Shown here: piece after piece, positions 25,330-48,646 of the stretch
Layout of the letters: the number at the start of each line of letters is the position of its first letter
How positions within the stretch are numbered: the first letter of the stretch is position 1
From: Candidatus Entotheonellaceae bacterium
Lineage (GTDB): Bacteria > Tectomicrobia > Entotheonellia > Entotheonellales > Entotheonellaceae
Assembly (NCBI GenBank): GCA_965238075.1
Contig: OZ250173.1
Coordinates: forward strand, 32,001 to 96,000
Length of the DNA stretch: 64,000 bases
Direction of reading: 5' to 3'
Translations under genes and position numbers: made by a program
Notes under the pieces: generated by a model
The model's input: the letters and a program-made list of their open reading frames with translations, nothing else
Database searches by the model: none
Told to the model about the DNA's origin: nothing

Positions 25330-27120
25330 TTACGGGAGCGCGAACGTGACGAGCGCTGCGGACGACTGATAGTTGACCATCTGGTCCCCGAACAGGGCCA
25401 GCACGGCGCCGGCAACGTAGGTACCATGGCCAACTACCATGGATACGTACTGCTTGCCGTCGGCGTCGTAGGAAATGATACCGCCGTTGTGGCCGGTACC
25501 GTTGTTGAAACGCCACAGGACGTCGCCGGTTTCGGCGTCCAACGCCTCTGCCCAACCGTCCATGGTGCCGTTAAACACCAGGCCGCTAGCGGTGGACATC
25601 AGCGCTGAGTGCGGAATGATGTCATAACGCTTGTCCCAGGTCAGCTCGGCCGTCACCGGGTTACGCGCCGTGATGCGTCCGTGCGCCTTTTCGCCAGGCG
25701 GATGCGTGCCCACCCATTCGGCAGCCATGAAGACCTGCGCGAACGGCTCGGTCACGCGGGTCTCGGTACCGAAGGAGATGGTGGTGCCGCCGCCCTCGGG
25801 GGCAACCGTCAGCCACATGCACCATTCGTTGACCACGCGATAGTGCAACCCGGTCTGCGGGTTGTACGTGCCGGCGTTCCAGCTATGGCCGCCATCGATA
25901 GCCGGGCAAACCAACGTGCGCTCGCCAGGCTTGGGCCACAGCATGTTCTCAAACTCGCCCGTTTCCAGATTGAAACCGCTCGTCCAATTTTGGCTCTTCT
26001 GGGCCGGGTACACGTTCACGGGCTTGCCGCTCTTGGGCTCGTGCACGTGGTTGAAACCGTTCTTGCCAGGGTGGAGAAGCAGGGTCTGGCCGTTGTCTTC
26101 GAACAGGACGTACTCGCCAGGAGAGGCGTCGTAGTCGTAGGGATCGCTCGGCGCTTCCTGAAAGTACCAATTCAGCTTGCCGGTATCCAGGTCCAAGGCG
26201 ATCGTGGAGGAGGTGTACAGGTTGTCACCCGGGCGCCAGCCGTTGGTGTTCGGGTCGCGGCACTGGTCACCGCAATAGTCGTAGTCAGGATCCGGATTGC
26301 TCGTGCCCATCAGGATCTGGTTGTTGGCGTAATCAACGGTGCCGGGCTGCCAGGAGCCGCCGCCGCCGTACTTCCACGAGTCACCGCCCCAGGTGGCGAG
26401 GGCTGCGGGGTCGCCGCGGCCCGTGGTGTAGAAGGTCCACTTCAAATCGCCATTCTGAGGATTGAGACCGAAGATGCGCCCCTCAATCGGATACTCGCCG
26501 CCGTTCTGACCGATGACGACCAGGTCGGAATTGACGAAGGTGGCGGAGCCGCTGAAGCCCGCGGTGTCCTTTTGAGAGTTGACCAGCTTGCGGTCCCACA
26601 TGATCTCGGCGGTGTTCTCGTCTATCGCCACCACGCGGCCATCGGCCAGGCCCATGTAGATACGACCGTCGCCAATGGAGGTGCCGCGGGAGTGAGCGAA
26701 AACGGAGCGCGCCACAACGGCCTCGTCCATCTCCGGTGTGAAGGCCCAGATGCGCTCACCCGTCGCGCCGTTGAGCTTCCAGATCGTGGACGGGTTGGCG
26801 GGGAGGTAAACATTGCCGCCGATGGCCAACGGCGTGCTGTGCAAGCCGCCATTACCGCTGCCGGTGGCGCCGCCGGGCAGGAAGATCCACGCCGGGCGGA
26901 GTTGGGACACGTTGTCCTTGGTGATCTGATCCAGCGGGCTGTGCCGCCAAGCCTTGTCGGTGGTGCGATGGTACGCGCACCAGTTCTCAGCCGGGCAGTT
27001 CCGGATGCTGTCAGCGCTCGTGCTGCCGTGGCTCATCGCCATCGCAGCCGGAGCCACAAACAGGCCGGCAATCGCCAGCAACACCAATGCCTTACCAAGT
27101 CTTTTCATTCCCTTGCACAT
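25330..27120 (-). CDS. Divergent PQQ-dependent dehydrogenase (methanol/ethanol superfamily)
   Basis: Signal peptide, SPLDQITKDNV, RPGDNLYTSS, DPYDYD, W-motif propeller repeats, DGKQYV. Confidence 0.92.
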   Translation of the reverse strand: MCKGMKRLGKALVLLAIAGLFVAPAAMAMSHGSTSADSIRNCPAENWCAYHRTTDKAWRHSPLDQITKDNVSQLRPAWIFLPGGATGSGNGGLHSTPLAIGGNVYLPANPSTIWKLNGATGERIWAFTPEMDEAVVARSVFAHSRGTSIGDGRIYMGLADGRVVAIDENTAEIMWDRKLVNSQKDTAGFSGSATFVNSDLVVIGQNGGEYPIEGRIFGLNPQNGDLKWTFYTTGRGDPAALATWGGDSWKYGGGGSWQPGTVDYANNQILMGTSNPDPDYDYCGDQCRDPNTNGWRPGDNLYTSSTIALDLDTGKLNWYFQEAPSDPYDYDASPGEYVLFEDNGQTLLLHPGKNGFNHVHEPKSGKPVNVYPAQKSQNWTSGFNLETGEFENMLWPKPGERTLVCPAIDGGHSWNAGTYNPQTGLHYRVVNEWCMWLTVAPEGGGTTISFGTETRVTEPFAQVFMAAEWVGTHPPGEKAHGRITARNPVTAELTWDKRYDIIPHSALMSTASGLVFNGTMDGWAEALDAETGDVLWRFNNGTGHNGGIISYDADGKQYVSMVVGHGTYVAGAVLALFGDQMVNYQSSAALVTFALP

Positions 27121-27550: not shown

Positions 27551-28798
27551 ATGAAAAGTGCAAAGATTATCTACGACATCATTTGGATGACAATCGCGAT
27601 TCTACTCGCCTCCTTCCTCACGGTCGTCTTTGATCTGCATGAGTGGCTTATTCAGTACACGCGCCCCTTCGAATCCTGGGAGCTCGATGAGACTCCCTTC
27701 TTCCTCTTTTTTGTGGCCCTGTCCTGTGCTTGGTTTGCCTATCGACGCTGCCGAGAATTGATCACGGAGATCGCCGAGCGCAGGCAGATCCAGAAGGCGC
27801 TCACGGACAGTGAAACCCGCTACCGTACCCTGGTAGAAGCCTCGGCTCAGGGCATTTATATATACCAGGAAGGCACCATACGGTTTGCAAACCGGGCGCT
27901 GGGCCGGCTGTTTGGCTGTGAAAGCGCCGAAGCGTTAATCGGGGAGCACGTGGAACAGCTCTACTCGCCTCATGAAGAGGCGCGTCTGACAGCCTACAAC
28001 ACTGCCGCTTTGGCGGGCCACGCCGAGCCGCGGCGTTACGAATGGCACGGCGTGCATCGGGACGGCGCCATGCTCTGGCTCGAAAGTCTTACGCTGCGCA
28101 TCACGTGGGACGGCGTCCCGGCCCTGATGGTTACGGTGCTGGACATTACGGAGCGTCGAGGCCAGGAACAGGAACGACGCAAGATCGCTTACGACATCCA
28201 CGACGGCATCGCGCAGTTGATGGTGGGCGCCCAGCACCATCTGGAGGCGTTCGATCACCTCTGGCGCGATGACGCTTCACTGGCCGAGGATCAGTTGGGC
28301 CGCGGCCGTGCTAAGCTCCGCCAGGCGATCGTCGAAACACGACGGCTGATGACTCAACTGCGCCCGGTCAGCCTCGAAACCCTGGGTTTGATTCCTGCCG
28401 TGCAGCAGTATCTGAACGAATTGGGCAAAGACGCTGGCTGGGAAATCGACTATCACGCTGAGGTCGCCGCCCTGAATCTCTCCCCGGACGGGGAAACCGC
28501 CCTTTTCCGCATTCTGCAAGAGGCGCTGACGAATGCCTGGAAGCATGCGCAGACGCCAAGGGTGCGTCTCAGCCTGCACACCGAAGGCGAAAAAGACGAT
28601 CTGCTGGTTGTATGTGTCCAAGATTGGGGAATAGGTTTCGAGCCCGCCCGGATCCACTCCGATGCCCAAGGGATCGGCCTTATGGGCATGCGTGAGCGCT
28701 CTCGACAACTGGGTGGGGTATGCAGCATCGAGAGTCGCCCCGGCCGCGGCACGACTGTGCGGCTGCGGATTCCCCTGCAGCATGGAGAAGCCACATGA
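27551..28798 (+). CDS. PAS-domain sensor histidine kinase (HisKA_3 type)
   Basis: Two TMs, PAS, IAYDIHDGIAQ, QEALTNAWKHA, DWGIGF, GLMGMRER. Confidence 0.92.
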   Translation: MKSAKIIYDIIWMTIAILLASFLTVVFDLHEWLIQYTRPFESWELDETPFFLFFVALSCAWFAYRRCRELITEIAERRQIQKALTDSETRYRTLVEASAQGIYIYQEGTIRFANRALGRLFGCESAEALIGEHVEQLYSPHEEARLTAYNTAALAGHAEPRRYEWHGVHRDGAMLWLESLTLRITWDGVPALMVTVLDITERRGQEQERRKIAYDIHDGIAQLMVGAQHHLEAFDHLWRDDASLAEDQLGRGRAKLRQAIVETRRLMTQLRPVSLETLGLIPAVQQYLNELGKDAGWEIDYHAEVAALNLSPDGETALFRILQEALTNAWKHAQTPRVRLSLHTEGEKDDLLVVCVQDWGIGFEPARIHSDAQGIGLMGMRERSRQLGGVCSIESRPGRGTTVRLRIPLQHGEAT

Positions 28799-29460
28799 GT
28801 CTGCGGGAACAGCGCCGCATTCAGGTCGTGATAGCCGACGATCACCCGGTGGTGCGGGAAGGCTTGCGGAGCGTCCTTTTGACGGCTGCGGACATGGAGG
28901 TTATCGGCGAGGCCGGTACGGGAGCGGAGGCGGTGGCGCAAGCGCAGGCGCTGCAGCCGGAGGTCATGCTGCTCGACATCCGCATGCCCGATGGGAATGG
29001 CCTGGCAGTCCTGAATCAGATCAAGGCGGTGTCGCCCGATACCAGCGTCATCATGGTGACCATGCACGACAATCCTGATTACATTTCCCGCGCCGTTGCA
29101 GCTGGTGCCGCCGGGTACGTTCTCAAGGAGGCAAATCGCCACGATCTCCTCACGGCAATTCGCACGGTGCTCAATCCATCGGCGGCGCCCACCCCTGTCC
29201 TGTTGAGCAAATCTCAACGGGTGCCGTTCAACGCCGCACAGACGGCGGCGCCGTCCGGCCCCACGTCGCTTAGCTCGGTCGAACGCGAATTGCTGTTGCT
29301 GCTAGCGGATGGGCTCAGCAATAAAGAAATCAGCTTGCAGTTGCGCTGCAGCTTGGGCACCGTCAAGAATTATCTCCAGCATATTTTCACCACCCTTCAG
29401 GTTTCAGACCGCACCCGCGCAGTTGTAGAAGCTATCCGCCTCGGGCTCATTGATCCGTGA
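28795..29460 (+). CDS. NarL/LuxR-family response regulator
   Basis: ADDHPVVREG, LDIRMP, GLSNKEI, TVKNY. Confidence 0.93.
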   Translation: MSLREQRRIQVVIADDHPVVREGLRSVLLTAADMEVIGEAGTGAEAVAQAQALQPEVMLLDIRMPDGNGLAVLNQIKAVSPDTSVIMVTMHDNPDYISRAVAAGAAGYVLKEANRHDLLTAIRTVLNPSAAPTPVLLSKSQRVPFNAAQTAAPSGPTSLSSVERELLLLLADGLSNKEISLQLRCSLGTVKNYLQHIFTTLQVSDRTRAVVEAIRLGLIDP

Positions 29461-29692
29461 GATTGTAGCCACCTGGCCACAACGTCTTGGCCAGACGGCT
29501 TCATTGCGGATTTGCGCCCTCTTTCGCCGTTGCCGATTTATCACAGACATGGGTATATGGTGATGCAGGAAGCCGCTTTAACTCTTGACTGCGCGCTTCG
29601 GGAAGGTCTGAGGAAATCGCTCAGATGCGGGCTGTGTGCTGATACCCTCAAATTCTCATTCCGGCGCAAATCCTTTGCGTTCGGGAAGCTAC

Positions 29693-29718
29693 TGGACTCC
29701 GGCTTCCATCGGAATGAC
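29693..29718 (-). repeat. REP-like palindrome (degenerate)
   Basis: tggactccggcttccatcggaatgac. Confidence 0.6.
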
Positions 29719-29810
29719 GGGAACAGGCAGTCCGCCGATACCGTCAGAGGTTGCGGACTTGGGCAGATTTATTCTGACCTTCCCCTAAAAACGGAGCACG
29801 TGGGCGAGCG

Positions 29811-30563
29811 ATGAGCGAACGTTTGACTGACATACGGGATGCGAACTTCGGGTACGGCCGCACAAGTGTCTTGCAAGGCGTGCAATTCTCCCTTGCGGCG
29901 GGAGATTTCGTCGGCCTTGTCGGGCCTAACGGCGCGGGCAAGACCACCTTGTTGCGCGGCTTGTTGGGCCTGATCAAACCGCAGCGTGGAGAGAGGCGGA
30001 TCAACCCCCCTGACGGCGCTGCCGACGTGGTATTCGGCTATGTGCCGCAGGAAAAGGCGGTTGATCCGTTTTTCCCGTTGTCGGTGCTCGACGTGGTGCT
30101 CATGGGGCGCTACCGGCTGCTCGGGCCGGGCCGGCGTCCGACGCTGGTGGATCGGCGTGCGGCACTGGCGTGTCTCGGCCACGTGCAACTTGAGCATCTT
30201 GCTGACGCGTCCTTTCAGGATTTGTCAGGCGGTCAGAAACAGCGGGTCCTTCTGGCCCGTGCTTTGGCCACCGAGCCGCACGTTCTGGTGCTCGATGAAC
30301 CAACCAGCGCCATGGACCTGGCAGCTGAAAAACGGCTCATGGCCGTGATTAGCGAGCAGCACGAGGCCCGAGGGCTGACGGTCATGCTGGCAACACACGA
30401 CTTGAACCTGATCGGTCGCTACGCTTCCAGAATTGCCCTTGTCGCGGGGGGGCGGGTTATCAGCGGCTCGCCAACGGAACTTTTGGAGACCCGGCAACTC
30501 AGTGAGGTATACGGCGTCGAGGTGCAGGTGCACGAAGTCCAGGGTCGGCGGTTAATCGTCTGA
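29811..30563 (+). CDS. Metal ABC transporter ATP-binding protein (ZnuC/MntA-like)
   Basis: GPNGAGKT, GYVPQ, LSGGQKQRV, LDEP, THDL. Confidence 0.93.
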   Translation: MSERLTDIRDANFGYGRTSVLQGVQFSLAAGDFVGLVGPNGAGKTTLLRGLLGLIKPQRGERRINPPDGAADVVFGYVPQEKAVDPFFPLSVLDVVLMGRYRLLGPGRRPTLVDRRAALACLGHVQLEHLADASFQDLSGGQKQRVLLARALATEPHVLVLDEPTSAMDLAAEKRLMAVISEQHEARGLTVMLATHDLNLIGRYASRIALVAGGRVISGSPTELLETRQLSEVYGVEVQVHEVQGRRLIV

Positions 30564-30583
30564 GGCTACGGAGAGTCAACGCC

Positions 30584-32713
30584 ATGTGGGAAATGCTTTC
30601 CTACCCCTTCTTCCAATCGGCGCTCATCGCCGGCACCTTGTCCGCGGCCATGTGTGCTCTGGTGGGGGTGTACGTCCTGCTCAAGCGCATCGTGTTCGTC
30701 GGCATTGCGCTGGCCCAGCTTGCTTCACTGGGTGTGGCGGTGGCTTTGCTTATCGACGTGCACCCGATGATCATGGCCCTGGTGACGACCTTGACGGGTG
30801 TGGCCTGTTTTGCATTGACCCGTACCGGCCAGCGCGTTCCGCAAGAGGGCGTGATCGGTGCCAGCTACGTGATGGCGGCGGCCCTCGGCATCATTTGCGT
30901 GGCCAAGAATCCCGTGGGCGAGGCGCGCAATCTGAAGGTGCTGTTCGGCAACATCCTGTCCGTTCACACGGGGGAGATGGTGGCCCTCGCCGTGCTTTTG
31001 GCGGTGCTGGCCATCGTACACGTGGTTTTCTACAAGGAGTTCCTGTTCGTATCTTTCGACCCGGAAACCGCCCAGGCTCAGGGAATCAACGTCCGCGGGT
31101 GGGACCTTCTGCTGTACCTCACCATCGGTCTGGCGATTGCGTTTTCCATTCACTCAATGGGAGTGTTACTCGTGTTTGCACTACTGCTTGTTCCAGCCAT
31201 GACGGCGCGCCTTGTGGCGCACAGGATGATGGCTTTGTTTGCCCTGGCCATTGCTTTCGGGGTTGTCGCAGTTCCGCTCGGTCTGTATCTGGCTGTGCGC
31301 ATCGACCTGCCGACCGGCACCGCGGTGGCCGGCACCTGCGTGGTGATGCTGTTGGCCGTCCTGACGGGTCGCGGTTTGTATCGCAGTGTTGGACGCTTGG
31401 CGTCGGGGGCGGCGGTGCTGATGCTGGTATTTAGCTTGGCAATACCGGGTTCCGTTTCCGCCCAGGAGACGGATGTTGAACAGCGTCTGCAGGAGTTGCA
31501 GCAGGAAATACAAGAGCTTCGTAACAGCCTGCGCGGCCAGCAGTTGCGGCTGCCGGGCGGCTTGCTGCTCAACCCGGAAATGCGCGTCGAAGGCAACTTC
31601 CAAGGCAATCGAGGCTGGGGCTTGCAACGAAACGCCGAGTACGAGGGTTTCCCCAACAACCGCTTCAATATCCGTGAGGTCGAACTCGGCTTCCGGGCCT
31701 CGGTGGACCCCTTCGCGGTTCTGGAAACGGTTATCAGCGCCCAGCGTCTGGTGGAAATCGAATTTGAGGACGGGGAAGAGGAATTGCCCCGCGAACTCGA
31801 TTCCGAAGTGGAATTCGAGGAGGCGCACCTGACCTTTGCGCGGCTGCCGCTGCGCTTGCGCGGCAAGCTGGGTCTCATGCGCACCAGCTTCGGTGAGTAC
31901 AACGACGATGACCCCGATGAGTTCCCGCAAATCGACCCGCCAAACGTTATCGTGCATCTCTATGGCGAGGAAGGCGAGGGCTGGAAGGAACCCGGCCTCA
32001 ACCTGAACTACCAGTTCGCCAGCCCGTTTTCCGAACGCATGACGCACGTCATCTGGTTTGGGCTCTACAGCGGCGAAAATGGGACTGCCTTTCACGGCGG
32101 GCAGCTTGACAAGCCGGTTTGGTTCACGCGGGCTGAGTTGTTCTACGAAGTGGCGCCGCGGGCAGGTCTGGAACTCGGCCTCAGTTTTGCTGCCGGGAAG
32201 CGCTTCGAATGCTTTGAACCTGGTGCACCCTTGGAATGTTTTGAGGGCGATGACGGCGCCGAAATGCTCGCCGGGGAATTCGATACCATGCTCATGAACG
32301 TCCACTTCGAGTTCGATTGGCGGCCGCCGTTGTACAGCTTGGAGCACAGTTTCGGCTTCTTGAGCGAAATTTTTTATTCCAGCGTGGAGCGCACGGACGG
32401 CACGCTGAATCAGTGGGGTGGTTACGCACTGTTTCAGTACGGCATCAATGCCAATTTGGCCCTTGGCGCCCGTCTCGACGTGGCTGAATGCCCCGGATTT
32501 TCTTCGTCGTTGTGCGTCGTCATGGAGAGCGACACACCCATCGAGGACCGCTCCGAGTGGGCCTTCTCACCCATCCTCACCTACAACCCGAGCCCCTTTC
32601 TGACCCTGCGGGCGCAATACAAGCACACGCAGCGAAATTACGCCGAGGATTCCCAAGAAATCCTCCTCCAGGCCCTGTTCATCATCGGCTACGAGCGTTC
32701 GGAACCGTTCTAG
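30584..32713 (+). CDS. Fusion: metal ABC permease (ZnuB-like, about aa 1-265) + signal-peptide-like linker + acidic outer-membrane porin-like domain
   Basis: LVGVYVLLKR, LFGNILSV, SFDPETAQAQG, GVLLVFALLLVPA; then SVSA-QE, coiled coil, EVELGFRASVDPF, amphipathic strands, C-terminal Phe; no internal stop. Confidence 0.85.
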   Translation: MWEMLSYPFFQSALIAGTLSAAMCALVGVYVLLKRIVFVGIALAQLASLGVAVALLIDVHPMIMALVTTLTGVACFALTRTGQRVPQEGVIGASYVMAAALGIICVAKNPVGEARNLKVLFGNILSVHTGEMVALAVLLAVLAIVHVVFYKEFLFVSFDPETAQAQGINVRGWDLLLYLTIGLAIAFSIHSMGVLLVFALLLVPAMTARLVAHRMMALFALAIAFGVVAVPLGLYLAVRIDLPTGTAVAGTCVVMLLAVLTGRGLYRSVGRLASGAAVLMLVFSLAIPGSVSAQETDVEQRLQELQQEIQELRNSLRGQQLRLPGGLLLNPEMRVEGNFQGNRGWGLQRNAEYEGFPNNRFNIREVELGFRASVDPFAVLETVISAQRLVEIEFEDGEEELPRELDSEVEFEEAHLTFARLPLRLRGKLGLMRTSFGEYNDDDPDEFPQIDPPNVIVHLYGEEGEGWKEPGLNLNYQFASPFSERMTHVIWFGLYSGENGTAFHGGQLDKPVWFTRAELFYEVAPRAGLELGLSFAAGKRFECFEPGAPLECFEGDDGAEMLAGEFDTMLMNVHFEFDWRPPLYSLEHSFGFLSEIFYSSVERTDGTLNQWGGYALFQYGINANLALGARLDVAECPGFSSSLCVVMESDTPIEDRSEWAFSPILTYNPSPFLTLRAQYKHTQRNYAEDSQEILLQALFIIGYERSEPF

Positions 32714-32725
32714 GAGGAAGTACCA

Positions 32726-33688
32726 GTGACCAGGTTTTCTGTAACTCTACGTTCGGCAGTGTTGGGGGTTCTGACCCTGGCATTCGTGTTGACCTCCGGC
32801 GGTTGGGCCGCTGAGCACGGACAGTCCGCGTTCCTGGTTGGGAGCACCACCGACTTTACCGCCATTGCCAAGGAGATCGGTGGGGATCGGGTGCAGGTCT
32901 ACGCGCCGCTGCCCGGGTACCAGGAGCCCGAGCTGTACATCGAAGAGGTGTTTCCGTCCTGGATCATCCAGGCGTCGCGGGCGGACGGCTATATCCGCAT
33001 CGGGCTTTTCGCCGACGTATGGGCGGATATCTTGGTTATCGATGCGCGCAATCCGCTCATCTATCCCGGCGCGCCCGGACACGTGGACGCCTCGCAAGGC
33101 ATCCACGTGCTGGAAGTCCCGACCGGCCCGCTGGACCGCTCCCGTGGCGAGATTCACCTGCAAGGCAACCCGCATTACCTGCTGGACCCGCTGAACGCCA
33201 AGATCGTTGCGGACAGCATCCTGCGGGCGCTGGTGGCTATGTCGCCCGAGGAGGCGGATTTCTTCACGGCCAACACCGAGGACTTCAAGCGCCGCATCGA
33301 CGAGGCCATGGAGCGCTGGCAGGACATGGCCGCGCCCTTGCGGGGCAAGAAGCTGGCGGCTTATCACCGCACCTGGACCTACCTGTTGCGGCGTTTCGGC
33401 CTGGATATCGTGGGTTACGTGGAGCCCAAGCCCGGCATTGCGCCGTCGCCGCTGGAAATCCGCAATCTGGTCAGGGCGATGGTGCGGGACAACGTTCGCC
33501 TGATCATCCACGCGCCGGTCTATCACCCGCGCACGCCGCGCGCCGTGGCTCGTCAGGTATTGGGTCGGATAGGCGAGCCCGTCACGGTGCTGAAGCTACC
33601 GGCGCACGTCGGCGGGGTGCCCGAAGCGGACAGTTATTTTGCCCTCTTCGATTACATCTTGACGACGTTGAACGAGGTCCTCAATTGA
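32726..33688 (+). CDS. Metal ABC transporter substrate-binding protein (ZnuA/TroA-like)
   Basis: IAKEIGGDRV, GNPHYLLDP, YHRTWTY, EPKPGIAPS; the usual DPH motif reads EPE. Confidence 0.9.
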   Translation: MTRFSVTLRSAVLGVLTLAFVLTSGGWAAEHGQSAFLVGSTTDFTAIAKEIGGDRVQVYAPLPGYQEPELYIEEVFPSWIIQASRADGYIRIGLFADVWADILVIDARNPLIYPGAPGHVDASQGIHVLEVPTGPLDRSRGEIHLQGNPHYLLDPLNAKIVADSILRALVAMSPEEADFFTANTEDFKRRIDEAMERWQDMAAPLRGKKLAAYHRTWTYLLRRFGLDIVGYVEPKPGIAPSPLEIRNLVRAMVRDNVRLIIHAPVYHPRTPRAVARQVLGRIGEPVTVLKLPAHVGGVPEADSYFALFDYILTTLNEVLN

Positions 33689-33774
33689 GGTAGGCTTGCC
33701 GCCGGCTGATCGACGAGGGTTCCTGTCGATCAGCCGGTCTACCATTATTTCAACCAACATTAGGAAGGCTAAAC

Positions 33775-34587
33775 ATGCGTATCACCGGACGGAGTCTCGT
33801 GCCGCTGGGCGCAGTCATCATGCTGCTGTTCTGCGCCGCCACGGCTGCCGCGCTCGAGGTCCGGCTCATCTATGTGGGCAGCACCGACGAGGCGGCATGG
33901 TTCGGCGTCTTGCAGGGTCAGCATGAGGCCAACATCCAGGGGCGTTTTCTCGACCAGACCTATACCGTGGAAGCGATGACGCCGGAGGCGTTGTCACAGG
34001 CGAATCAGCAAGCCGCTGCGATAATCGCAGCGGGCGACGCATCAGCGGCACAAAGCCTGAGCGAGGCGATGCCCGGCGTCGCCGTGTTTAACGTGACGGC
34101 TGACGACGACGCCCTGCGCCAGGCTTGCACCGCGAATCTGTTGCACGTTCCACCCAGCAACGCCATGAAGGCAGATGCGGTGGCGCAGTGGCTGCAGAAG
34201 AACCCCGACGCCAGCGTGGAGGCGCGTGCCTGGCATCCCAAATTCGTCAAGTATGCTGCTCGTGACCTGAACAAGCGCTTCCTGAAGGTTCAGGGCGTTG
34301 CGATGAACGACGACGCTTGGGCCGGCTGGGCTGCAGTGCGTATGGTCGCCGAGGCCGTCATACGGACGCAGTCGACGGACCCTTCTGCCCTGCTTTCCTT
34401 CGTGAAGACTGAGATTGCCTTCGACGGGCAAAAGGGCATCTCCCATACCTTCCGTGATACCGGTCAACTGCGGCAGCGGCTCCTCATTGTTGACGACGCT
34501 GGCAAGCTGACCGGCGAAGCCCCGGTGCGGGGTGTGGCCGACACGACGGACCTCGACAGTCTCGGCATACCCTCGTGCCAGCGGTGA
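33775..34587 (+). CDS. PQQ-ADH-system ABC substrate-binding-like protein (LutA/PedA1-like, short)
   Basis: EANIQGRFL, DDALR..C..NLLH..PS..MKADAVAQW, LNKRF, WAAVRMVAEAV, DGQKG, FR..GQLRQ. Confidence 0.75.
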   Translation: MRITGRSLVPLGAVIMLLFCAATAAALEVRLIYVGSTDEAAWFGVLQGQHEANIQGRFLDQTYTVEAMTPEALSQANQQAAAIIAAGDASAAQSLSEAMPGVAVFNVTADDDALRQACTANLLHVPPSNAMKADAVAQWLQKNPDASVEARAWHPKFVKYAARDLNKRFLKVQGVAMNDDAWAGWAAVRMVAEAVIRTQSTDPSALLSFVKTEIAFDGQKGISHTFRDTGQLRQRLLIVDDAGKLTGEAPVRGVADTTDLDSLGIPSCQR

Positions 34588-34606
34588 AGGTTTCCCGGTT
34601 GGCAAG

Positions 34607-34686
34607 AGCCTGCCCTGGCCCCCGGATTAGGTCCGGGGCAGGCTTCGATCCGGGGTCAGTGGATTCCGGGTCAAGCCCGGAATGAC
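34607..34686 (-). repeat. Composite REP-like element
   Basis: 34660-34686 is the exact reverse complement of 15055-15081, preceded by a cccggattaggtccggggcaggcttc unit. Confidence 0.8.
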
Positions 34687-34746: not shown

Positions 34747-35712
34747 ATGACGTTTATGCGACCGATAGCTTTTGCAATGCTCGTGTTTCTCATCCTGGCC
34801 GTCGGGACTGCTGCAGCTGAGCCGACTTACCGCGTTTTTGTCACCAATGAGCGCGACGATTCCGTGTCGGTCATTGATAGCCGCACCAACGAGGTAGAGG
34901 CCACCATCGACGTTGGCGACCGCCCGCGTGGTATTGGCTTTTCTCCTGACCGGGCTTACGTTTATGTGGCGCTCGGCGAGGAAAACGCCATCGGCGTCAT
35001 CGATGCGCGCACCCTCGAGGTTGTCAAGAAGGTATCCGCGGGTTCCGACCCCGAGGCATTCGCCGTGCACCCGAACGGCAACATCTACCTGTCCAATGAA
35101 GACGCGAACCTCGCCACGGTCCTCAATCCGGTCTCTGGAGACATTCTGGCCGAAATCCCAGTCGGCATCGAGCCCGAAGGCGTGGGGGTGTCGCCGGACG
35201 GCTCACGGGTCATGGTGACCAGCGAGAGCACCTTCATGGTGCACGTCATTGCCGTGCCGGAGCACGAGGTAGTGGCCAACGTGTTAGTGGGTGCTCGCCC
35301 GCGAGAGGTGACGTTTTCGACAGATGGCAAATGGGCCTATGTGACCAGCGAGATCAGCGGCCAGGTGAGCAAGATCGACGTGGCGGCCAATGCCGTAGTG
35401 CTGCAGGTGCGGCTGGACGTTCCCAAGGCCAAGCCCAAGGGCGTAGTGGTCAGCCCGGATCAGAGAACCCTGTACGTCTCCACTGGCAGTGGCAACATGA
35501 TTGCGGCGTTGAACGCCGATACGCTTGAGCTGCTGGGCACCGTCAAGGTTGGCAAGCGGGTCTGGGGTATCGCACTGTCGCGGGACGGCTCCCGCCTGTA
35601 CACCTGCAATGGTGTCGATGACACGGTGTCAGTCGTGGATACCGCCAGCCTGACCGTCGTTGCCACCATTCAGGTAGGTACGGCGCCCTGGGGTGTGGTC
35701 ATTGATGATTGA
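34747..35712 (+). CDS. PQQ-catabolism-associated YVTN beta-propeller protein (LutB/PedA2-like)
   Basis: VFVTNE, VGDRPRG, GSDPEAF, VGIEPEG, VGKRVWG, VGTAPWGV repeats. Confidence 0.88.
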   Translation: MTFMRPIAFAMLVFLILAVGTAAAEPTYRVFVTNERDDSVSVIDSRTNEVEATIDVGDRPRGIGFSPDRAYVYVALGEENAIGVIDARTLEVVKKVSAGSDPEAFAVHPNGNIYLSNEDANLATVLNPVSGDILAEIPVGIEPEGVGVSPDGSRVMVTSESTFMVHVIAVPEHEVVANVLVGARPREVTFSTDGKWAYVTSEISGQVSKIDVAANAVVLQVRLDVPKAKPKGVVVSPDQRTLYVSTGSGNMIAALNADTLELLGTVKVGKRVWGIALSRDGSRLYTCNGVDDTVSVVDTASLTVVATIQVGTAPWGVVIDD

Positions 35713-35731
35713 TTGAAGGGTTCCTTGGCCC

Positions 35732-40731: not shown

Positions 40732-42510
40732 ATGATCAGGCGCTCGCTATGGATCGCTGTTGCATTGATGTTGGTTGTGCCCTTTGGGGCGCAGGCAAAC
40801 GACGAACTTCTGGCTCTGCAGGATGACGCCGGGCAGTGGACCTTACCCGGCAAAAACTATTCCGCTAACCGCTACAGCACTCTCAACCAGATCACCAGTC
40901 GTAACGTCAAGAACCTGAAAGCCTCGTGGACGTTTTCGCTTGGCGTGCTGCGTGGGCAGGAAGGCGCCCCGCTGGTGGTCGGCACGACGATGTACGTGCA
41001 CACCGGGTTTCCCAACAACGTCTACGCGCTGGACTTGACCCGGGACGGCGCGCCCATCAAATGGGCCTATAAGCCCAACCAGAACCCCAACGTGCCCGCG
41101 GTAGCGTGTTGCGATACGGTGTACCGCGGCTTGGCCTATGCCGAGGGGAAGATCTTCCTGGCGCAATTGGACACCAACGTCGTTGCCTTGGACGCCGCGA
41201 CTGGCAGAGAAATCTGGAAGGTCACGCAGGGCGACCCGGCTCAGGGCATGACCATTACCGCCGCGCCGCTGGTTATCAAGGATAAGGTCATCACCGGTAT
41301 CAGCGGCGGTGAGTTCGGTGTGCGTGGCTTTGTAACCGCAAACAACATCAACACCGGTGAGCAGGTCTGGCGCGCCTACAGCGCCGGGCCGGATGCGGAC
41401 GTGCTGATCGGCGATGATTTCAGCTCGCCCTACGCCAGTCATCAGGGTGCCGACCTCGGCGTCAACACCTGGAAGGGTGATGAGTGGACCCGCGGTGGCG
41501 GTACCACCTGGGGCTGGTACACCTACGATCCCGAGCTCGACCTGTTGTACTACAGCACCGGCAACCCGGGGGCGTGGAATCCCACCCAGCGCCCCGGCGA
41601 CAACAAATGGTCGATGACCGTCTTCGCGCGTAATCCGGACACCGGCATGGCGCGTTGGGCCTACCAGATGACGCCGCACGACGAGTGGGATTACGACGGC
41701 GTCAACGAGAACATCCTGGCCGACCTGCCCATGAACGGGCAGACGCGCAAGGTGCTGGTGCACTTTGATCGCAACGGCTTCGGGTACACGATTGACCGGG
41801 CGACCGGCGAGGTGCTCGTGGCCGAGAAGTTCGGCGCTGTCAACTGGGCGACCGGCGTTGACCTGGAAACCGGCGTGCCCGTTCGGGTAGCCGAAAAAGG
41901 CACCCAGGCGGGCCGCAACAGCAAGGACATCTGTCCGGCGGCCATCGGCACCAAGGACCAGCAACCCGCTGCCTTCTCGCCGAAGACCGGCCTGTTCTAC
42001 GTTCCCACCAACAACATCTGTATGGATTACGAGGGCGTGCCGGTGAAGTACCAGGCCGGGCAGTGGTACGTCGGCGCGATCGTGCGCATGTATCCCGGAC
42101 CGGGCGGTAACCGCGGCGAGTTCATCGCCTGGGATGCCACCACCGGTGAGAAGAAGTGGGGCATCAAGGAAAACCTGGCTGCATACGGCGGCGCGCTGGT
42201 GACGGCCGGTGACGTTGTCTTCTACGGCACCATGGAAGGTTGGCTGAAAGCGGTGCACGCCAAGACCGGCAGGCTGTTGTGGCGGTTCAAGACGGGCTCC
42301 GGCATTATCGCCAATCCGATGACCTATCTGGCGCCCGACGGCAAGCAATACGTAGCCGTCATTTCGGGCGTTGGCGGCTGGGCTGGCGTCGCCGTGGCCC
42401 TGGACATCGGCCCCGAGGATCCCACCGCAGGGCTGGGCGCTCTCGGCGCCTTTGGCGATGCGGGGATGCACAGTACCAAGGGAGCCATGTTGTATGTCTT
42501 CGGACTTTAA
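40732..42510 (+). CDS. xoxF: Lanthanide-type PQQ methanol/ethanol dehydrogenase (XoxF-like)
   Basis: VACCD vicinal Cys, SGGEFGVRG, TGNPG, RPGDNKW, WDYDGVNE (extra Asp where Ca-type MxaF has Ala); no mxaI nearby. Confidence 0.9.
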   Translation: MIRRSLWIAVALMLVVPFGAQANDELLALQDDAGQWTLPGKNYSANRYSTLNQITSRNVKNLKASWTFSLGVLRGQEGAPLVVGTTMYVHTGFPNNVYALDLTRDGAPIKWAYKPNQNPNVPAVACCDTVYRGLAYAEGKIFLAQLDTNVVALDAATGREIWKVTQGDPAQGMTITAAPLVIKDKVITGISGGEFGVRGFVTANNINTGEQVWRAYSAGPDADVLIGDDFSSPYASHQGADLGVNTWKGDEWTRGGGTTWGWYTYDPELDLLYYSTGNPGAWNPTQRPGDNKWSMTVFARNPDTGMARWAYQMTPHDEWDYDGVNENILADLPMNGQTRKVLVHFDRNGFGYTIDRATGEVLVAEKFGAVNWATGVDLETGVPVRVAEKGTQAGRNSKDICPAAIGTKDQQPAAFSPKTGLFYVPTNNICMDYEGVPVKYQAGQWYVGAIVRMYPGPGGNRGEFIAWDATTGEKKWGIKENLAAYGGALVTAGDVVFYGTMEGWLKAVHAKTGRLLWRFKTGSGIIANPMTYLAPDGKQYVAVISGVGGWAGVAVALDIGPEDPTAGLGALGAFGDAGMHSTKGAMLYVFGL

Positions 42511-46550: not shown

Positions 46551-47652
46551 CCCCCTGTGGCTGCTGGCGGAATTGACCTACCGCTGCCCGCTGCAATGCC
46601 TTTATTGCTCCAACCCCATAGACTACGCCAAGTATCAGAACGAGTTGACCACCGAGGAATGGATACGGGTGCTTCAGGAAGGCCGCGCCATGGGCGCCAC
46701 GCAGCTCGGCTTCTCGGGCGGTGAGCCTCTGGTTCGCAAGGACCTCGTTGACTTGGCGCGCGAAGCCAGACGGCTGGGCTATTATTCCAACCTGATCACC
46801 TCCGGCATCGGCATGGACGAGCCCCGTATCGCGGCCCTGAAGGAAGCCGGACTGGACCACATCCAGTTGAGCTTCCAGGCCAATACACCGGAAGTGAACG
46901 ACTACATCGGCGGCGCCAAGACTTTTGAACGCAAGCTGGCCATGGCTCGACTGATCAAGCACTACGATTACCCGATGGTGATGAACGTTGTGTTACATCG
47001 GCAGAATATCGATCAGACCGAGCAAATCCTGCAACTGGCCGAGGAGTTGGAGGCTGATTACATCGAGTTGGCCAACACCCAGTATTACGGCTGGGCGAAG
47101 GTCAACCGTTCTCAACTGTTGCCGACCCGCGATCAGGTGGAGCGCGCCGAAGCCATCGCCCACGACTACCAGGAACGCTTCAAGGGGCGCATGAAGGTCT
47201 ACTACGTCGTGCCCGATTACTTCGAGGACCGTCCCAAACCGTGCATGGCCGGTTGGGGTTCCGTGTTCTTGAACGTGGCGCCCGACGGCACTGCCCTGCC
47301 CTGCCACGCGGCCCATCAATTGCCGGGCCTGGATTTCCCCAACGTGCGCGATGCGAGCCTGCATTGGATCTGGCACGAATCCCCGGCCTTCAATGCCTTT
47401 CGGGGCGAGGACTGGATGAAGGAGCCCTGCCGCACCTGCCCGGAGCGCACCAAGGACTTTGGCGGTTGCCGCTGCCAGGCCTACATGCTGACGGGCGATG
47501 CGGCCAATGCAGACCCGGTTTGCAGCCTGTCGCCGCAACACGACATCGTGCTCAAGGCCATCGACGAGGACCAGGTCGTTCCGGCTGCCGATCAACTCCC
47601 CATGTTCCGCAGCAACAAGAATTCGCGGCAGTTTGTCGAAGCTGGCGCCTAG
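46513..47652 (+). CDS. pqqE: PqqA peptide cyclase (radical SAM/SPASM)
   Basis: [31 protein letters not shown]. Confidence 0.96.
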
Positions 47653-47686
47653 CGGCCGCCAGACCCCGCGACGGCACCTAACTCGC

Positions 47687-48646
47687 ATGCAGGTCGACGC
47701 CTTGTCGCAGTCCAACGTCCCATTCGCCATCCAGACGAACAATCTGAGCAAGGTATACGGCGGGCTGCAAGCAGTTAATTGCCTGCAGCTTGCCATACCC
47801 GCGGGCCAATTCTTCGGCTTGCTTGGCCCCAACGGGTCCGGCAAAACCACGACCATTCACATGTTGACGACCTTGGCGCGTCCCACGGCGGGACAGGCGA
47901 GTGTGGCTGGGCACGACGTCCTCAGGGAGAGCGTCGCGGTGCGCCGAGAGGTTGGCCTGGTCTTTCAGGAGTCGGCGCTGGACCGCACGCTGACGGTTGA
48001 CGAAAACCTGCGTTTTGCCGGCATGCTACGCAATCTGTCCCGTGCCACCATTCGCCAGCGCAGCGACGAGCTGCTTGAACTGTTCAACCTGCGCGAACGG
48101 CGCCACATGAAGGTCGCGACCCTCTCCGGCGGTATGCGGCGGGCGCTCGATATTGCCCGCGGCGTGCTGCACCGCCCTCGTGTCTTGTTTCTTGACGAGC
48201 CCACGCTGGGGCTGGACGTTCCCAGCCGGCGCGGTATCTGGCGCTTTATCGAACAGTTGCGCCGCGAGGAAGTCATGACCGTTTTTCTCACCACGCACTA
48301 CCTCGAAGAGGCTGAAACCTGTGACCAGGTCGCCTTCCTGGCCTCGGGCAGGATCATCGGCGCCGGCCCGCCCGAAACCCTGGTCCGTCAATTCGGTCAT
48401 TACGTATTGGAAATTGACGGTACCGACCTTGATATGGTCGCTGCGCTGCTGTCACCACGGCTCGGCCCCTGTCTCAGGGAAGGCGGGACCGCGAGTTTTC
48501 GCGTCCTTGACGAACAGTTTTCGTTTGTTGAACTGCAGGCGGAGCTGAACGACGGCGTGCAGGCCGTGCGCTGGCGTCGGCCCAACCTCAACGACGTGTT
48601 CCTTTGGGTAAACGATCCGGCCCTGAGCGTGGGACTGGACCTATGA
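47687..48646 (+). CDS. ABC transporter ATP-binding protein (ABC-2 type; LutE/PedB-like)
   Basis: GPNGSGKT, VFQESALD, LSGG, LDEPT, TTHY. Confidence 0.88.
   Translation: MQVDALSQSNVPFAIQTNNLSKVYGGLQAVNCLQLAIPAGQFFGLLGPNGSGKTTTIHMLTTLARPTAGQASVAGHDVLRESVAVRREVGLVFQESALDRTLTVDENLRFAGMLRNLSRATIRQRSDELLELFNLRERRHMKVATLSGGMRRALDIARGVLHRPRVLFLDEPTLGLDVPSRRGIWRFIEQLRREEVMTVFLTTHYLEEAETCDQVAFLASGRIIGAGPPETLVRQFGHYVLEIDGTDLDMVAALLSPRLGPCLREGGTASFRVLDEQFSFVELQAELNDGVQAVRWRRPNLNDVFLWVNDPALSVGLDL

What the first reader, a model, noticed from the sequence alone, without database searches (positions are those of the whole stretch)
29811..33688. Candidate new lanthanide-uptake system: Zn-type ABC importer plus porin with His ligands replaced by carboxylates
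Seen: a ZnuC-like ATPase, a permease-porin fusion and a ZnuA-like binding protein sit between two PQQ dehydrogenase genes that both carry D-x-D, directly upstream of LutA/PedA1- and LutB/PedA2-like genes. The binding protein reads GYQEPE (E at 32930-32932) where cluster A-I proteins have (D/E)PH. The porin reads FGEYN-DD-D-P-D (from 31889), ends G-Y-E-R-S-E-P-F and has a very acidic loop (EIEFEDGEEELPRELDSE). From my recollection of this porin family, the matching motifs are N-x-x-H-x-H and G-A-H-G-A-H-P-F, so about five His positions are Asp/Glu. Established: Ln3+ prefers carboxylate oxygen donors, and characterised Ln uptake uses a TonB receptor (LutH) or PedA1A2BC. No TonB receptor is present in this window. 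Inference: a transition-metal importer adapted for Ln3+ or another hard cation.
Basis: partly seen in the sequence, partly recalled or inferred. Interest (0 to 1): 0.92.

Follow-up and report, generated by a model that had tools for sequence, protein, structure and literature searches.

The report
Zinc-type importer rebuilt for hard cations
A zinc-type metal uptake system with its own outer-membrane channel has swapped its conserved histidines for acidic residues in several parts at once and sits among lanthanide-type alcohol dehydrogenase genes, so it may be a new route for taking up rare-earth metals, though manganese or iron uptake is not excluded.

Summary
Window 29811-33688 encodes an ABC ATPase, an ABC-3 permease fused to a 16-stranded porin, and a ZnuA-family binding protein. 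They lie upstream of PedA1-/PedA2-like genes and between two D-x-D PQQ dehydrogenases.

In 122 related porins, positions 443/445/704/707 are H122, H94, H121 and H88. In the 102-member clade of this protein they are D100, D/E99, E102 and D/E76. This clade is a single branch nested inside the His-type family.

The change is coordinated. All 21 of 21 acidic porins have a neighbouring binding protein with QEPE in place of D-x-H. The permease also loses conserved His residues. Sister genomes carry both system types, so the substrates probably differ.

Acidic-type systems occur almost only in genomes with PQQ dehydrogenases (18 of 19). All 10 such enzymes in this genome are the lanthanide type. However, only 4-5 of 21 loci sit next to PQQ or C1 genes.

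The binding protein keeps three invariant His. This genome shows no other recognised Mn importer.

Verdict: a specificity-switched variant of a Zn-type importer. Cargo odds are about 0.4 for Ln3+ and about 0.33 for Mn/Fe.

The parts
29811..30563 (+). ABC transporter ATPase (ZnuC/AztA/MntA-like)
   Evidence: PF00005 at 95 bits. NCBIfam hits AztA (177 bits) and MntA (177 bits) are both under their cut-offs. Conserved directly upstream of the permease in acidic-type loci.
30584..31375 (+). ABC-3 (ZnuB/AztB-type) permease domain of the fusion protein, residues 1-264
   Evidence: PF00950 at 163 bits over residues 6-259. It is the only ABC-3 permease in the 3.35-Mb genome. Against 20 His-type permeases, the 15 acidic-type ones have Y30 for H, R115 for H, E113 for A and A114 for E.
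31376..31462 (+). Internal signal-peptide-like segment (residues 265-293, ...RSVGRLASGAAVLMLVFSLAIPGSVSA|QE) joining permease and porin
   Evidence: Read from the sequence: a positive n-region, a hydrophobic core and a VSA|Q site. In-frame TTG265, TTG272, GTG278 and ATG280 could also serve as internal starts. Cleavage or internal initiation is inferred, not shown.
31484..32713 (+). Outer-membrane porin domain (residues 301-709): N-terminal helix plus 16-stranded barrel
   Evidence: AlphaFold2 model with pLDDT 89.8 and pTM 0.87, showing 16 strands. Best Foldseek hit is OprP 2o4v, TM 0.56. The Atlas finds Porin_O_P-like clusters. No Pfam or NCBIfam family matches.
31754..31807 (+). Acidic loop EIEFEDGEEELPRELDSE (residues 391-408), between strands 3 and 4
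   Evidence: Its length varies within the clade. RNA-library contigs differ by about 55 nt elsewhere in the barrel, at 32248-32250.
31889..31921 (+). FGEYNDDDPDE motif (F436-E446) in the long loop between strands 5 and 6 (the L3-like constriction loop)
   Evidence: Position 443 is D in 100 of 102 acidic-type proteins and H in 122 of 122 His-type. Position 445 is D56/E43 against H94. Position 438 is E in 102 of 102 against K/R. Position 441 is D98 against R/T. Loop assignment comes from the model.
32687..32710 (+). C-terminal tail GYERSEPF (residues 702-709) after the last strand
   Evidence: Position 704 is E in 102 of 102 against H in 121 of 122. Position 707 is D51/E25/G22 against H88/E33. 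The tail is not a strand in the model.
32726..33688 (+). ZnuA-family (cluster A-I) substrate-binding protein with Glu at the first ligand position (E69, 32930-32932) and a two-residue EE insertion
   Evidence: PF01297 at 128 bits. Aligned to Synechocystis ZnuA 2ov1/1pq4. In the 120 closest clusters, E67 and E69 are 120/120, and H144, H150 and H214 are invariant. All 21 of 21 SBPs beside acidic porins have QEPE.
33775..34587 (+). PedA1/LutA-like periplasmic protein (divergent, short)
   Evidence: TIGR03863 at 137 bits, far under the 413 cut-off, in two stretches; no Pfam hit. The only copy in the genome.
34747..35712 (+). PedA2/LutB-like YVTN beta-propeller
   Evidence: TIGR03866 at 317 bits, over the 287 cut-off. 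[quoted passage not shown] The AztD model matches only at E = 8e-4.
27551..29460 (+). Two-component system directly upstream: PAS/HisKA_3 histidine kinase (27551-28798) and NarL/LuxR-type regulator (28720-29460)
   Evidence: A two-component system, NarL-type or sigma-54 type, also lies beside the acidic-type system in L031, L035, L036, L061, L063, L085, L086, L088 and L090.
25330..27120 (-). Divergent PQQ dehydrogenase with D-Y-D
   Evidence: PF01011 at 202 bits; TIGR03075 at 348 bits, under the 480 cut-off. D-Y-D at residues 329-331.
40732..42510 (+). XoxF-type PQQ methanol/ethanol dehydrogenase with D-Y-D
   Evidence: TIGR03075 at 704 bits. Motif HDEWDYDG.
47498..49437 (+). PedB/PedC-like ABC-2 transporter (ATPase 47498-48646, permease 48604-49437) after pqqBCDE. 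This is a possible alternative partner for PedA1/PedA2.
   Evidence: TIGR03864 at 215 bits (cut-off 302) and TIGR03861 at 175 bits (cut-off 241).

Best explanation
This is a derived, specificity-switched version of a porin-linked Zn-type (cluster A-I, ABC-3) metal importer. Its most likely cargo is a hard, highly charged cation, and I favour Ln3+ feeding the cell's lanthanide-type PQQ dehydrogenases.

Proposed path:
1. The ion crosses the outer membrane through an OprP-fold, probably trimeric, 16-stranded porin. The constriction loop (E438, D441-D443, D445, E446), the C-terminal tail (E704, E707) and the barrel wall (E336, E576, D578) form a carboxylate filter where relatives have a His cluster.
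2. In the periplasm the ion is taken by a ZnuA-type protein whose first ligand His is Glu (E69), flanked by E67, E73 and E74.
3. The ABC-3 permease and ATPase import it into the cytoplasm.

The permease and porin are made as one ORF joined by a signal-peptide-like segment. The porin is presumably released by signal peptidase or made from an internal start. An adjacent two-component system presumably controls expression.

Shown: the fold, the residue switches, their co-variation, the single origin, coexistence with His-type systems, and the association with PQQ-ADH genomes. Inferred: the cargo, the clustering of the carboxylates in space, processing of the fusion, regulation, and any role of PedA1/PedA2.

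The confidence given (0.42) is for the Ln3+ cargo. That the system is a specificity-switched, non-Zn derivative I hold at about 0.85.
For: Porin alignment: H443 is 122/122 and H704 is 121/122 in His-type porins, against D100/102 and E102/102 in the acidic clade. Further clade-specific carboxylates are E438 (102/102), D441 (98), E576 (96), D578 (92) and E336 (102/102).

Tree: the acidic clade is one branch with SH-like support 100, nested among His-type rows. I sampled 35 of the acidic-type and 54 of the His-type proteins of 380 aa or more.

Structure: the model places the D-cluster in the strand-5/6 loop and the tail after strand 16. The fold is OprP-like.

Co-variation: 21 of 21 acidic porins have a QEPE SBP next door. 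14 of 14 evaluated His-type porins have a D-x-H SBP. Six further His-type loci were not resolved by my pattern. The permease also changes: H30 to Y and H115 to R, with E113 gained (15 acidic-type against 20 His-type).

Coexistence: G001, G002, G004 and G005 of the same genus carry both system types.

Genome-level link to PQQ-ADH (TIGR03075):
- Tectimicrobiota: acidic-positive 8/8, acidic-negative 5/9.
- Phylum of G065: 9/88 have PQQ-ADH, and the single acidic-positive genome is one of them.
- Phylum of G064: 2/9, and the single acidic-positive genome is one of them.
- Phylum of G062: 94/251, against 8/9 acidic-positive. This is 7/8 without the unpublished G375.
- 44 unrelated genomes: 0/44, including 5 His-type carriers.

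Local links: the PedA1/PedA2/XoxF synteny in the window's genus; L062 inside an FhcD/FhcC/Mch/MptN H4MPT C1 island; L068 and L069 beside MoxJ-like genes. None of 23 His-type loci has a PQQ-ADH, MoxJ or PedA1 neighbour.

Demand: all 10 of 10 PQQ-ADH paralogues of this genome carry D-x-D.

Expression: RNA-library contigs from two studies cover the locus. One 7.8-kb contig spans 29400-34688. This is weak evidence, because contigs do not prove transcription.
Against: - No cluster A-I system is known to carry anything but Zn, Mn or Fe (abstract listing of PMC7731109).
- The SBP keeps invariant H144, H150 and H214. E69 + H150 + H214 plus carboxylates is the same 2N + O donor mix as Mn/Fe sites. From recall, known Ln sites are all-oxygen.
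- 16 of 21 acidic-type loci or lineages with at least 2 kb of flank have no PQQ or C1 neighbour.
- The L063 propeller (243 bits, under the 287 cut-off) is ambiguous, because similar YVTN propellers lie near 4 of 23 His-type loci.
- This genome has no other ABC-3 or ZnuA system and no NRAMP. This could therefore be its ordinary Mn importer.
- A PedB/PedC-like pair lies 12 kb downstream, so PedA1/PedA2 need not work with this importer.
- Two TonB receptors exist elsewhere in the genome.
- The genome-level counts involve related genomes and taxa that are rich in PQQ-ADH anyway. G372 is acidic-positive without a PQQ-ADH match at my threshold.
Confidence: 0.42

Rival explanations
1. It is the Mn2+ (or Fe2+) member of the usual Zn/Mn pair of cluster A-I importers. 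In this reading the His-type system takes Zn and the acidic type takes Mn/Fe, with a matching cation-selective outer-membrane channel. The neighbourhood of PQQ genes would be incidental.
For: - The donor set E69 + H150 + H214 plus carboxylates equals the 2 His + 2 carboxylate set of Mn/Fe binding proteins. PsaA, MntC and YfeA are among the PDB relatives; their ligand sets are recalled.
- G000 has no NRAMP, no second ABC-3 or ZnuA system, and no FeoB over its cut-off.
- Sister genomes hold one system of each type, like many bacteria with Znu plus Mnt.
- 16 of 21 loci have no PQQ or C1 neighbour.
- All characterised cluster A-I systems carry Zn, Mn or Fe (abstract listing of PMC7731109).
Against: - Genome-level restriction to PQQ-ADH genomes is 18 of 19, against backgrounds of 0 to 37% outside Tectimicrobiota.
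- There are four independent local links to PQQ or C1 genes, against 0 of 23 for His-type loci.
- There is no anticorrelation with NRAMP. In the phylum of G062, acidic-positive genomes have NRAMP in 5/9 cases against 140/251 overall.
- From recall, characterised Mn/Fe proteins keep the first His; here it is Glu in 120/120.
- Eight to ten conserved carboxylates in the pore is a lot for a divalent ion (inference).
Confidence: 0.33
2. It imports another hard cation, such as Ca2+, Mg2+ or a trivalent ion like Al3+/Fe3+, or it serves metal sensing or detoxification rather than supplying a cofactor.
For: Carboxylate filters favour any hard cation (established chemistry). Ca2+ is the cofactor of non-Ln PQQ dehydrogenases, which would also explain a link to PQQ genomes. 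A dedicated two-component system lies beside most loci.
Against: All 10 of 10 PQQ-ADHs here are the D-x-D (Ln) type, so no Ca-type enzyme needs supplying. The organism's relatives are labelled as sponge or marine MAGs, where Ca and Mg are abundant, so a high-affinity ABC importer would be odd (inference). No precedent was found.
Confidence: 0.12
3. It is still a Zn2+ importer, and the residue changes are neutral drift or adaptation to another Zn species.
For: The best named NCBIfam hits are Azt/Znu types. H144, H150 and H214 are kept. G000 lacks the His-type system.
Against: - Positions invariant for His in 121-122 of 122 relatives are invariantly acidic in 100-102 of 102 members.
- The same switch occurs in the SBP and permease.
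- Four sister genomes keep both systems.
- G000 has a ZIP transporter for Zn.
Confidence: 0.05

Closest known systems
ZnuABC / AztABCD zinc importers (cluster A-I SBP, ABC-3 permease)
   Same: Same three-component core: PF00005 ATPase, PF00950 permease and PF01297 SBP. The second and third ligand His are kept. AztABCD also has a periplasmic beta-propeller partner, AztD (abstracts of PMC6689063 and PMC7463823 in the listing). Here a beta-propeller gene also follows.
   Different: The first ligand His is Glu, with an EE insertion. Conserved permease His residues are lost. A dedicated porin is fused to the permease. All NCBIfam Azt/Znu models score far under their cut-offs. The propeller is the PedA2 type, not AztD (E = 8e-4 only).
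Unnamed His-type porin family encoded beside Znu-like genes (C-terminus G-x-H-x-x-H-x-F/Y)
   Same: Homologous 16-stranded barrel: 474 representative clusters at E <= 1e-3. Same position next to SBP and permease genes (9 of 10 and 12 of 13 loci).
   Different: The four conserved His are acidic here. Extra carboxylates are present. 84 of 102 acidic-type proteins are fused to the permease, against 0 of 126 His-type. I found no description of either type in Pfam or NCBIfam or in the listing.
PedA1A2BC (Pseudomonas putida) and LutH/LutAEF (Methylorubrum extorquens) lanthanide uptake
   Same: Same genomic company (PedA1-like, PedA2-like, XoxF-type dehydrogenases, pqq genes), and the presumed task would be the same. 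The known systems are described in the title and abstract of PMC6839425 and in passages of PMC11845868.
   Different: Those systems use a TonB-dependent receptor and/or an ABC-2-type transporter with a LivK-like SBP. This one uses a passive porin, an ABC-3 permease and a ZnuA-type SBP. Function here is untested.
OprP/OprO ion-specific porins
   Same: Best structural matches (TM 0.56). Same principle of a charged ladder that selects an ion. That OprP uses an arginine ladder for phosphate comes from the entry title of 2o4v.
   Different: Opposite charge: carboxylates for cations. No PF07396 match. An N-terminal helix is present. About 10% sequence identity.
MntABC/PsaABC/SitABCD Mn/Fe importers
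   Same: Same superfamily and a mixed His/carboxylate donor set. They are PDB relatives at E 1e-5 to 1e-8.
   Different: From recall, those keep the first His and place the carboxylates at ligand positions 3 and 4. None has a dedicated fused porin.

Membership tests
Cluster A-I metal ABC importer (Znu/Azt/Mnt type) | ABC-3 family permease | tested here: met
   PF00950 at 163.5 bits (cut-off 20.1), residues 6-259.
Cluster A-I metal ABC importer (Znu/Azt/Mnt type) | ZnuA/TroA-fold substrate-binding protein | tested here: met
   PF01297 at 128 bits (cut-off 29). PDB relatives include ZnuA, MntC and PsaA.
Cluster A-I metal ABC importer (Znu/Azt/Mnt type) | His at the first metal-ligand position ((D/E)-P-H motif) | tested here: not met
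   E69 aligns with the His of 'NDPH' in 2ov1/1pq4. It is Glu in 120 of 120 closest clusters.
Cluster A-I metal ABC importer (Znu/Azt/Mnt type) | His at the second (NPH) and third (xH) ligand positions | tested here: met
   H150 and H214 are invariant.
ZnuABC / AztABC equivalogs (NCBIfam) | Score over the curated cut-off | tested here: not met
   AztA 177 against 220; AztB 132 against 280; AztC 57 against 350; ZnuA 51 against 268.
AztABCD | AztD-type beta-propeller metallochaperone | tested here: not met
   The NF038015 match of the propeller at 34747-35712 is E = 8e-4, 18 bits against a cut-off of 400. No AztD chain is among its PDB hits.
PedA1A2BC / Lut lanthanide uptake | PedA2-type beta-propeller (TIGR03866) | tested here: met
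   317 bits against a cut-off of 287.
PedA1A2BC / Lut lanthanide uptake | PedA1/LutA-type binding protein (TIGR03863) | tested here: not met
   137 bits against a cut-off of 413; 270 aa against a 347-position model.
PedA1A2BC / Lut lanthanide uptake | ABC-2 type PedB ATPase and PedC permease | tested here: inconclusive
   The importer under study is ABC-3, not ABC-2. A PedB/PedC-like pair lies at 47498-49437, but under its cut-offs (215 against 302; 175 against 241).
PedA1A2BC / Lut lanthanide uptake | TonB-dependent receptor (LutH type) in the cluster | tested here: not met
   There are two Plug-domain genes in the genome, and both lie outside the window.
PedA1A2BC / Lut lanthanide uptake | Lanthanide binding or transport | not testable with these tools
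   This needs ITC, ICP-MS or genetics.
Phosphate-selective porin O/P (PF07396) | Pfam match | tested here: not met
   No PF07396 hit at E <= 1. There is only fold similarity (TM 0.56) and feature similarity.
His-type Znu-linked porin family (unnamed) | His at positions 443 and 704 (L3 loop N-x-x-H-x-H and C-terminal G-x-H-x-x-H-x-F) | tested here: not met
   The window protein has D443, D445, E704 and E707. His-type porins have H 122/122 and H 121/122 at 443 and 704.
Lanthanide-type PQQ dehydrogenases (neighbouring genes) | Extra Asp two residues after the catalytic Asp (D-x-D) | tested here: met
   Present in both neighbours and in all 10 of 10 paralogues in the genome. That D-x-D marks Ln dependence is recalled knowledge.

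The most novel reading that the evidence does not exclude
This is the first TonB-independent, chelator-independent lanthanide uptake pathway. A porin with a carboxylate ladder, a ZnuA-type Ln3+ binding protein and an ABC-3 importer evolved once from a Zn system by coordinated His-to-carboxylate replacement in all three metal-handling parts. In some lineages it is joined by a PedA2-type propeller acting as a periplasmic metallochaperone, analogous to AztD. It would be spread across Tectimicrobiota, the phylum of G062 (source names suggest Methylomirabilota/Rokubacteria) and SAR324.
Probability: 0.35. Interest if true: 0.9.

Novelty: new variant of a known kind. Interest (0 to 1): 0.72.

Why it matters
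Known lanthanide uptake depends on TonB receptors with metallophores, or on the PedA1A2BC and Lut ABC systems. How the many XoxF-rich uncultured lineages obtain lanthanides is open (passages of PMC11845868, and PMC10875860).

If this cargo is Ln3+, the system gives three things:
- a simple three-protein route that can be expressed and assayed;
- a natural example of how a Zn site is converted to a hard-cation site in a channel, a binding protein and a permease at once;
- candidate proteins for rare-earth capture.

Even if the cargo is Mn or Fe, two things appear undescribed: a large family of Znu-linked porins with a His filter, and a derived clade in which an inner-membrane permease is fused to an outer-membrane porin.

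Tried and rejected
- Complex prediction of the mature SBP with the PedA2-like propeller gave 'no answer' (score 0.01). It counts neither for nor against binding.
- The AztD analogy for the propeller is not supported by sequence.
- The promoter/terminator scan of 29300-36300 found nothing above shuffles.
- Pfam and NCBIfam give no family for the barrel.
- The search of earlier findings returned nothing by place, sequence or words.
- The maximum-likelihood tree did not finish in time. A FastTree run replaced it.
- The idea that the acidic system replaces NRAMP was tested and not borne out: 5/9 against 140/251.
- The idea that PedA1/PedA2 have no ABC-2 partner was rejected after I found the PedB/PedC-like pair.
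- SBP hits of 42-47% identity in the phylum of G062 were first suspected to be the acidic type, but they are His-type by motif.
- RNA-library contigs cover the locus but cannot prove transcription, strand or operon structure. Parts without cover in X17 and X18 say nothing.
- Paper searches found no description of a Znu-type or porin-based lanthanide route, judged from listings only: 'lanthanide'+'ZnuA' (7 papers), 'Entotheonella'+'lanthanide' (2), 'lanthanide uptake'+'porin'+'ABC transporter' (4), and zinc/porin/Zur regulon terms (34).

Full report
OBSERVATION. An ABC ATPase lies at 29811-30563. A 709-aa ORF at 30584-32713 has an ABC-3 permease domain (PF00950, residues 6-259) followed by about 410 residues with no Pfam family. 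A ZnuA-family binding protein lies at 32726-33688 (PF01297).

Downstream on the same strand are two more genes. One is a short PedA1-like protein (TIGR03863, 137 bits, far under the 413 cut-off). The other is a true PedA2-type YVTN propeller (TIGR03866, 317 bits, over the 287 cut-off).

PQQ dehydrogenases with D-Y-D lie at 25330-27120 (-) and 40732-42510 (+). All quoted residues and coordinates check out: E69 at 32930-32932, FGEYNDDDPDE from 31889, the ending GYERSEPF, and the acidic loop at residues 391-408. The genome is one 3.35-Mb contig. Record titles of near-identical loci call it an uncultured Candidatus Entotheonella / Tectimicrobiota MAG.

THE PORIN AND ITS FAMILY. Searches with the barrel domain gave 107 word-index hits and 474 representative clusters at E <= 1e-3. 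In a MAFFT alignment of 239 sequences, I sorted them by C-terminal motif. 122 fell into a 'His type' (G-x-H-x-x-H-x-F/Y), 102 into an 'acidic type' (G-[YF]-E-R-P-x-x-F), and 15 were left unclassified.

In window numbering, His type against acidic type:
- 443: H122/122 against D100/102
- 445: H94 against D56+E43
- 704: H121/122 against E102/102
- 707: H88/E33 against D51/E25/G22

The acidic clade also fixes E438 (102/102, K/R in the others), D441 (98), E446 (101), E336 (102), E576 (96) and D578 (92). It has H574 where the others have D107.

A FastTree of 35 acidic and 54 His-type barrels (every third and every second sequence of 380 aa or more) puts all acidic rows on one side of a branch. SH-like support is 100, and the branch is nested among His-type rows. 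The root is only a midpoint, and the groups were defined by a motif that is part of the alignment.

The AlphaFold2 model (pLDDT 89.8, pTM 0.87) has an N-terminal helix and 16 strands. The D-cluster lies in the long loop between strands 5 and 6, which is the position of the constriction loop in classical porins. The last seven residues follow strand 16 and are not a strand. The best solved matches are OprP and OprO (TM 0.56). The Atlas points to Porin_O_P-like clusters. Pfam and NCBIfam have no family for it. I could not read coordinates, so the spatial clustering of the carboxylates is inferred from topology only.

THE FUSION. Between the permease and the barrel lies ...RSVGRLASGAAVLMLVFSLAIPGSVSA|QE. 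It reads like a Sec signal peptide and contains possible in-frame starts. 84 of 102 acidic-type proteins are 650 aa or longer, meaning fused. None of 126 His-type proteins is. In some acidic loci the porin is a separate gene (L031, L035, L036, L063). Release of the porin by signal peptidase or by internal initiation is inference.

THE BINDING PROTEIN AND PERMEASE CHANGE IN STEP. E69 aligns with the first ligand His of Synechocystis ZnuA, and the NPH and xH histidines are kept. In the 120 closest clusters, E67 and E69 are 120/120, E73 is 109, E74 is 116, and H144, H150 and H214 are invariant.

Every acidic porin with a readable neighbour has a QEPE(L/I) binding protein: 6 of 6, 6 of 6 and 9 of 9, or 21 of 21 in all. 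His-type porins also sit beside ZnuA-like, permease and ATPase genes (9 of 10 loci; 12 of 13). Their binding proteins have D-x-H in 14 of 14 evaluated. Six more were not resolved by my pattern.

I compared 15 acidic-type and 20 His-type permeases. His type against acidic type:
- position 30: H16/20 against Y14/15
- position 115: H16/20 against R15/15
- position 114: E18/20 against A14/15
- position 113: A12/20 against E15/15
- positions 24 and 111: H12 and H11 of 20 in the His type, against C14 and V10 of 15 in the acidic type

COEXISTENCE. Four of five sister genomes (G001, G002, G004, G005) carry both an acidic and a His-type system. The window's genome has only the acidic one: one ABC-3 permease, one ZnuA-like protein and one porin of this family.

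LINK TO PQQ DEHYDROGENASES, GENOME LEVEL (TIGR03075; the E-value thresholds I set differ between calls):
- Tectimicrobiota (17 genomes): acidic-positive 8 of 8, acidic-negative 5 of 9.
- 44 unrelated genomes: 0 of 44, including 5 His-type carriers.
- Phylum of G065 (titled SAR324): 9 of 88. The one acidic-positive genome is among them. None of 6 genomes with lower-identity ZnuA-like hits is.
- Phylum of G064: 2 of 9, including the one acidic-positive genome.
- Phylum of G062: 94 of 251. Acidic-positive genomes (SBP identity 56% or more, confirmed by motif in 7 of 7 fetched loci) score 8 of 9, or 7 of 8 without the unpublished G375. G372 has none at E <= 1e-130.
- G063 carries an acidic porin on L034 and also has a PQQ-ADH.

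These genomes are related to one another, so the counts overstate independence.

LINK, LOCUS LEVEL. The full synteny is kept in five genomes of the window's genus, which counts as one lineage. Elsewhere, L062 lies inside an H4MPT C1 island with FhcD, FhcC, Mch, MptN and beta-RFAP synthase, all over their cut-offs except MptN and beta-RFAP. L068 and L069 are followed by MoxJ-like genes (TIGR03871 is the best hit, under its cut-off). L063 is followed by a YVTN propeller (TIGR03866, 243 bits, under 287).

Sixteen further loci or lineages with at least 2 kb of flank show no such neighbour: L031/L032, L033, L034, L035, L036, L059, L061, L065, L072 and L085-L091. That makes 4 clear cases plus 1 ambiguous out of 21. 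Among 23 His-type loci, none has a PQQ-ADH, MoxJ or PedA1 neighbour. Four have a YVTN propeller (142-194 bits), which is why L063 is ambiguous.

A two-component system lies beside the acidic system in most loci. It is NarL-type in the window, L061, L085, L086 and L090. It is the sigma-54 type in L031, L035, L036, L063 and L088.

DEMAND. All 10 of 10 PQQ-ADH paralogues of this genome carry D-x-D. So do 10 of 12 best hits examined in other acidic-positive genomes. That D-x-D marks lanthanide dependence is recalled knowledge.

AGAINST THE LANTHANIDE READING.
- The binding protein keeps three invariant His. With E69, this gives the 2N + O donor mix typical of Mn/Fe sites.
- Characterised cluster A-I systems carry Zn, Mn or Fe (abstract listing of PMC7731109).
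- This genome has no NRAMP, no FeoB over its cut-off and no second ABC-3 system, though it has a ZIP gene. The system could therefore be its ordinary Mn importer.
- NRAMP shows no anticorrelation with the acidic system, at 5 of 9 against 140 of 251. This neither helps nor hurts much.
- A PedB/PedC-like ABC-2 pair follows pqqBCDE at 44469-49437, so PedA1/PedA2 have another possible partner.
- Two TonB receptors exist elsewhere in the genome.

EXPRESSION. The stretch, or near-identical sequence, is held by runs of nine studies, eight of the runs on record as RNA. In RNA-library contigs, one 7778-nt contig (X7) covers 29400-34688. Cover breaks at a repeat at 34647-34689, and PedA2 lies on the next contig. 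Two runs of a second study cover parts of the locus. Contigs show presence in an RNA library. They do not show transcription or an operon.

LITERATURE. Known Ln uptake uses LutH (TonB receptor) with LutAEF, and PedA1A2BC (passages of PMC11845868; title and abstract of PMC6839425). A survey of XoxF3 neighbourhoods mentions NRAMP, YncE-type propellers and TonB receptors, but no Znu-type system in the passages I saw (PMC10875860). My searches listed no paper on a Znu-type or porin-based Ln route or on the His-type porin family. I judged these by titles and abstract starts only, and supplements were closed.

VERDICT. It is well supported (about 0.85) that this is a single-origin, specificity-switched derivative of a porin-linked Zn-type importer and that it does not carry Zn. 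The cargo is open. My odds are about 0.42 for Ln3+, 0.33 for Mn/Fe, 0.12 for another hard cation and 0.05 for Zn, with the remainder unknown. It is a new variant of a known kind, it is easy to test at the bench, and it is of high interest if the cargo proves to be a lanthanide.

Noticed in passing
window 34588-34746 (core 34647-34689): The PedA1-PedA2 intergenic region holds palindromic REP-like repeats. The core has at least 49 further copies across the genome. RNA-library contigs break there, with many loose ends and a depth spike.
   Followed up: partly
window 44469-50841: This stretch holds pqqB, pqqC, presumably pqqD in the 46230-46513 gap, and pqqE. A PedB/PedC-like ABC-2 transporter and a copper nitrite reductase (NirK, TIGR02376 at 474 bits) follow.
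   Followed up: partly
window 36286-37497 (-): A single ORF fuses a c-type cytochrome domain (cytochrome c-L/cbb3-like) to a MoxJ-like periplasmic binding domain. A paralogue lies beside another PQQ-ADH at about 2.82 Mb.
   Followed up: no
genome G000, ten loci: All ten PQQ dehydrogenase paralogues carry D-x-D and none looks Ca-type. Five of them score under the TIGR03075 cut-off.
   Followed up: partly
loci L037-L046 and L073-L084: A large family of porins has an invariant His in the constriction loop and a G-x-H-x-x-H-x-F/Y C-terminus. They are encoded beside ZnuA-like genes and have no Pfam or NCBIfam model (474 representative clusters). This is a candidate zinc porin family that I found no description of.
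   Followed up: partly
G000 against G001, G002, G004, G005: The window's genome lacks the His-type porin/Znu-like system that four sister genomes keep. G003, in 290 contigs, also shows none.
   Followed up: partly
protein P0384: This 554-aa protein joins a PedA2-type propeller to a PF13458 periplasmic binding domain. It is a natural PedA1-PedA2 fusion, which argues that those two proteins work together.
   Followed up: no
window 32248-32250: RNA-library contigs of two runs carry about 55 extra letters here, inside the barrel. This fits the length variation of an acidic Asp/Glu-rich loop within the clade.
   Followed up: no
L035 65-2984 and L081 11797-14269: A second, ordinary Znu-like set (SBP with D-S-H, ATPase, permease) lies a few kb from the porin-linked system in these loci.
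   Followed up: no
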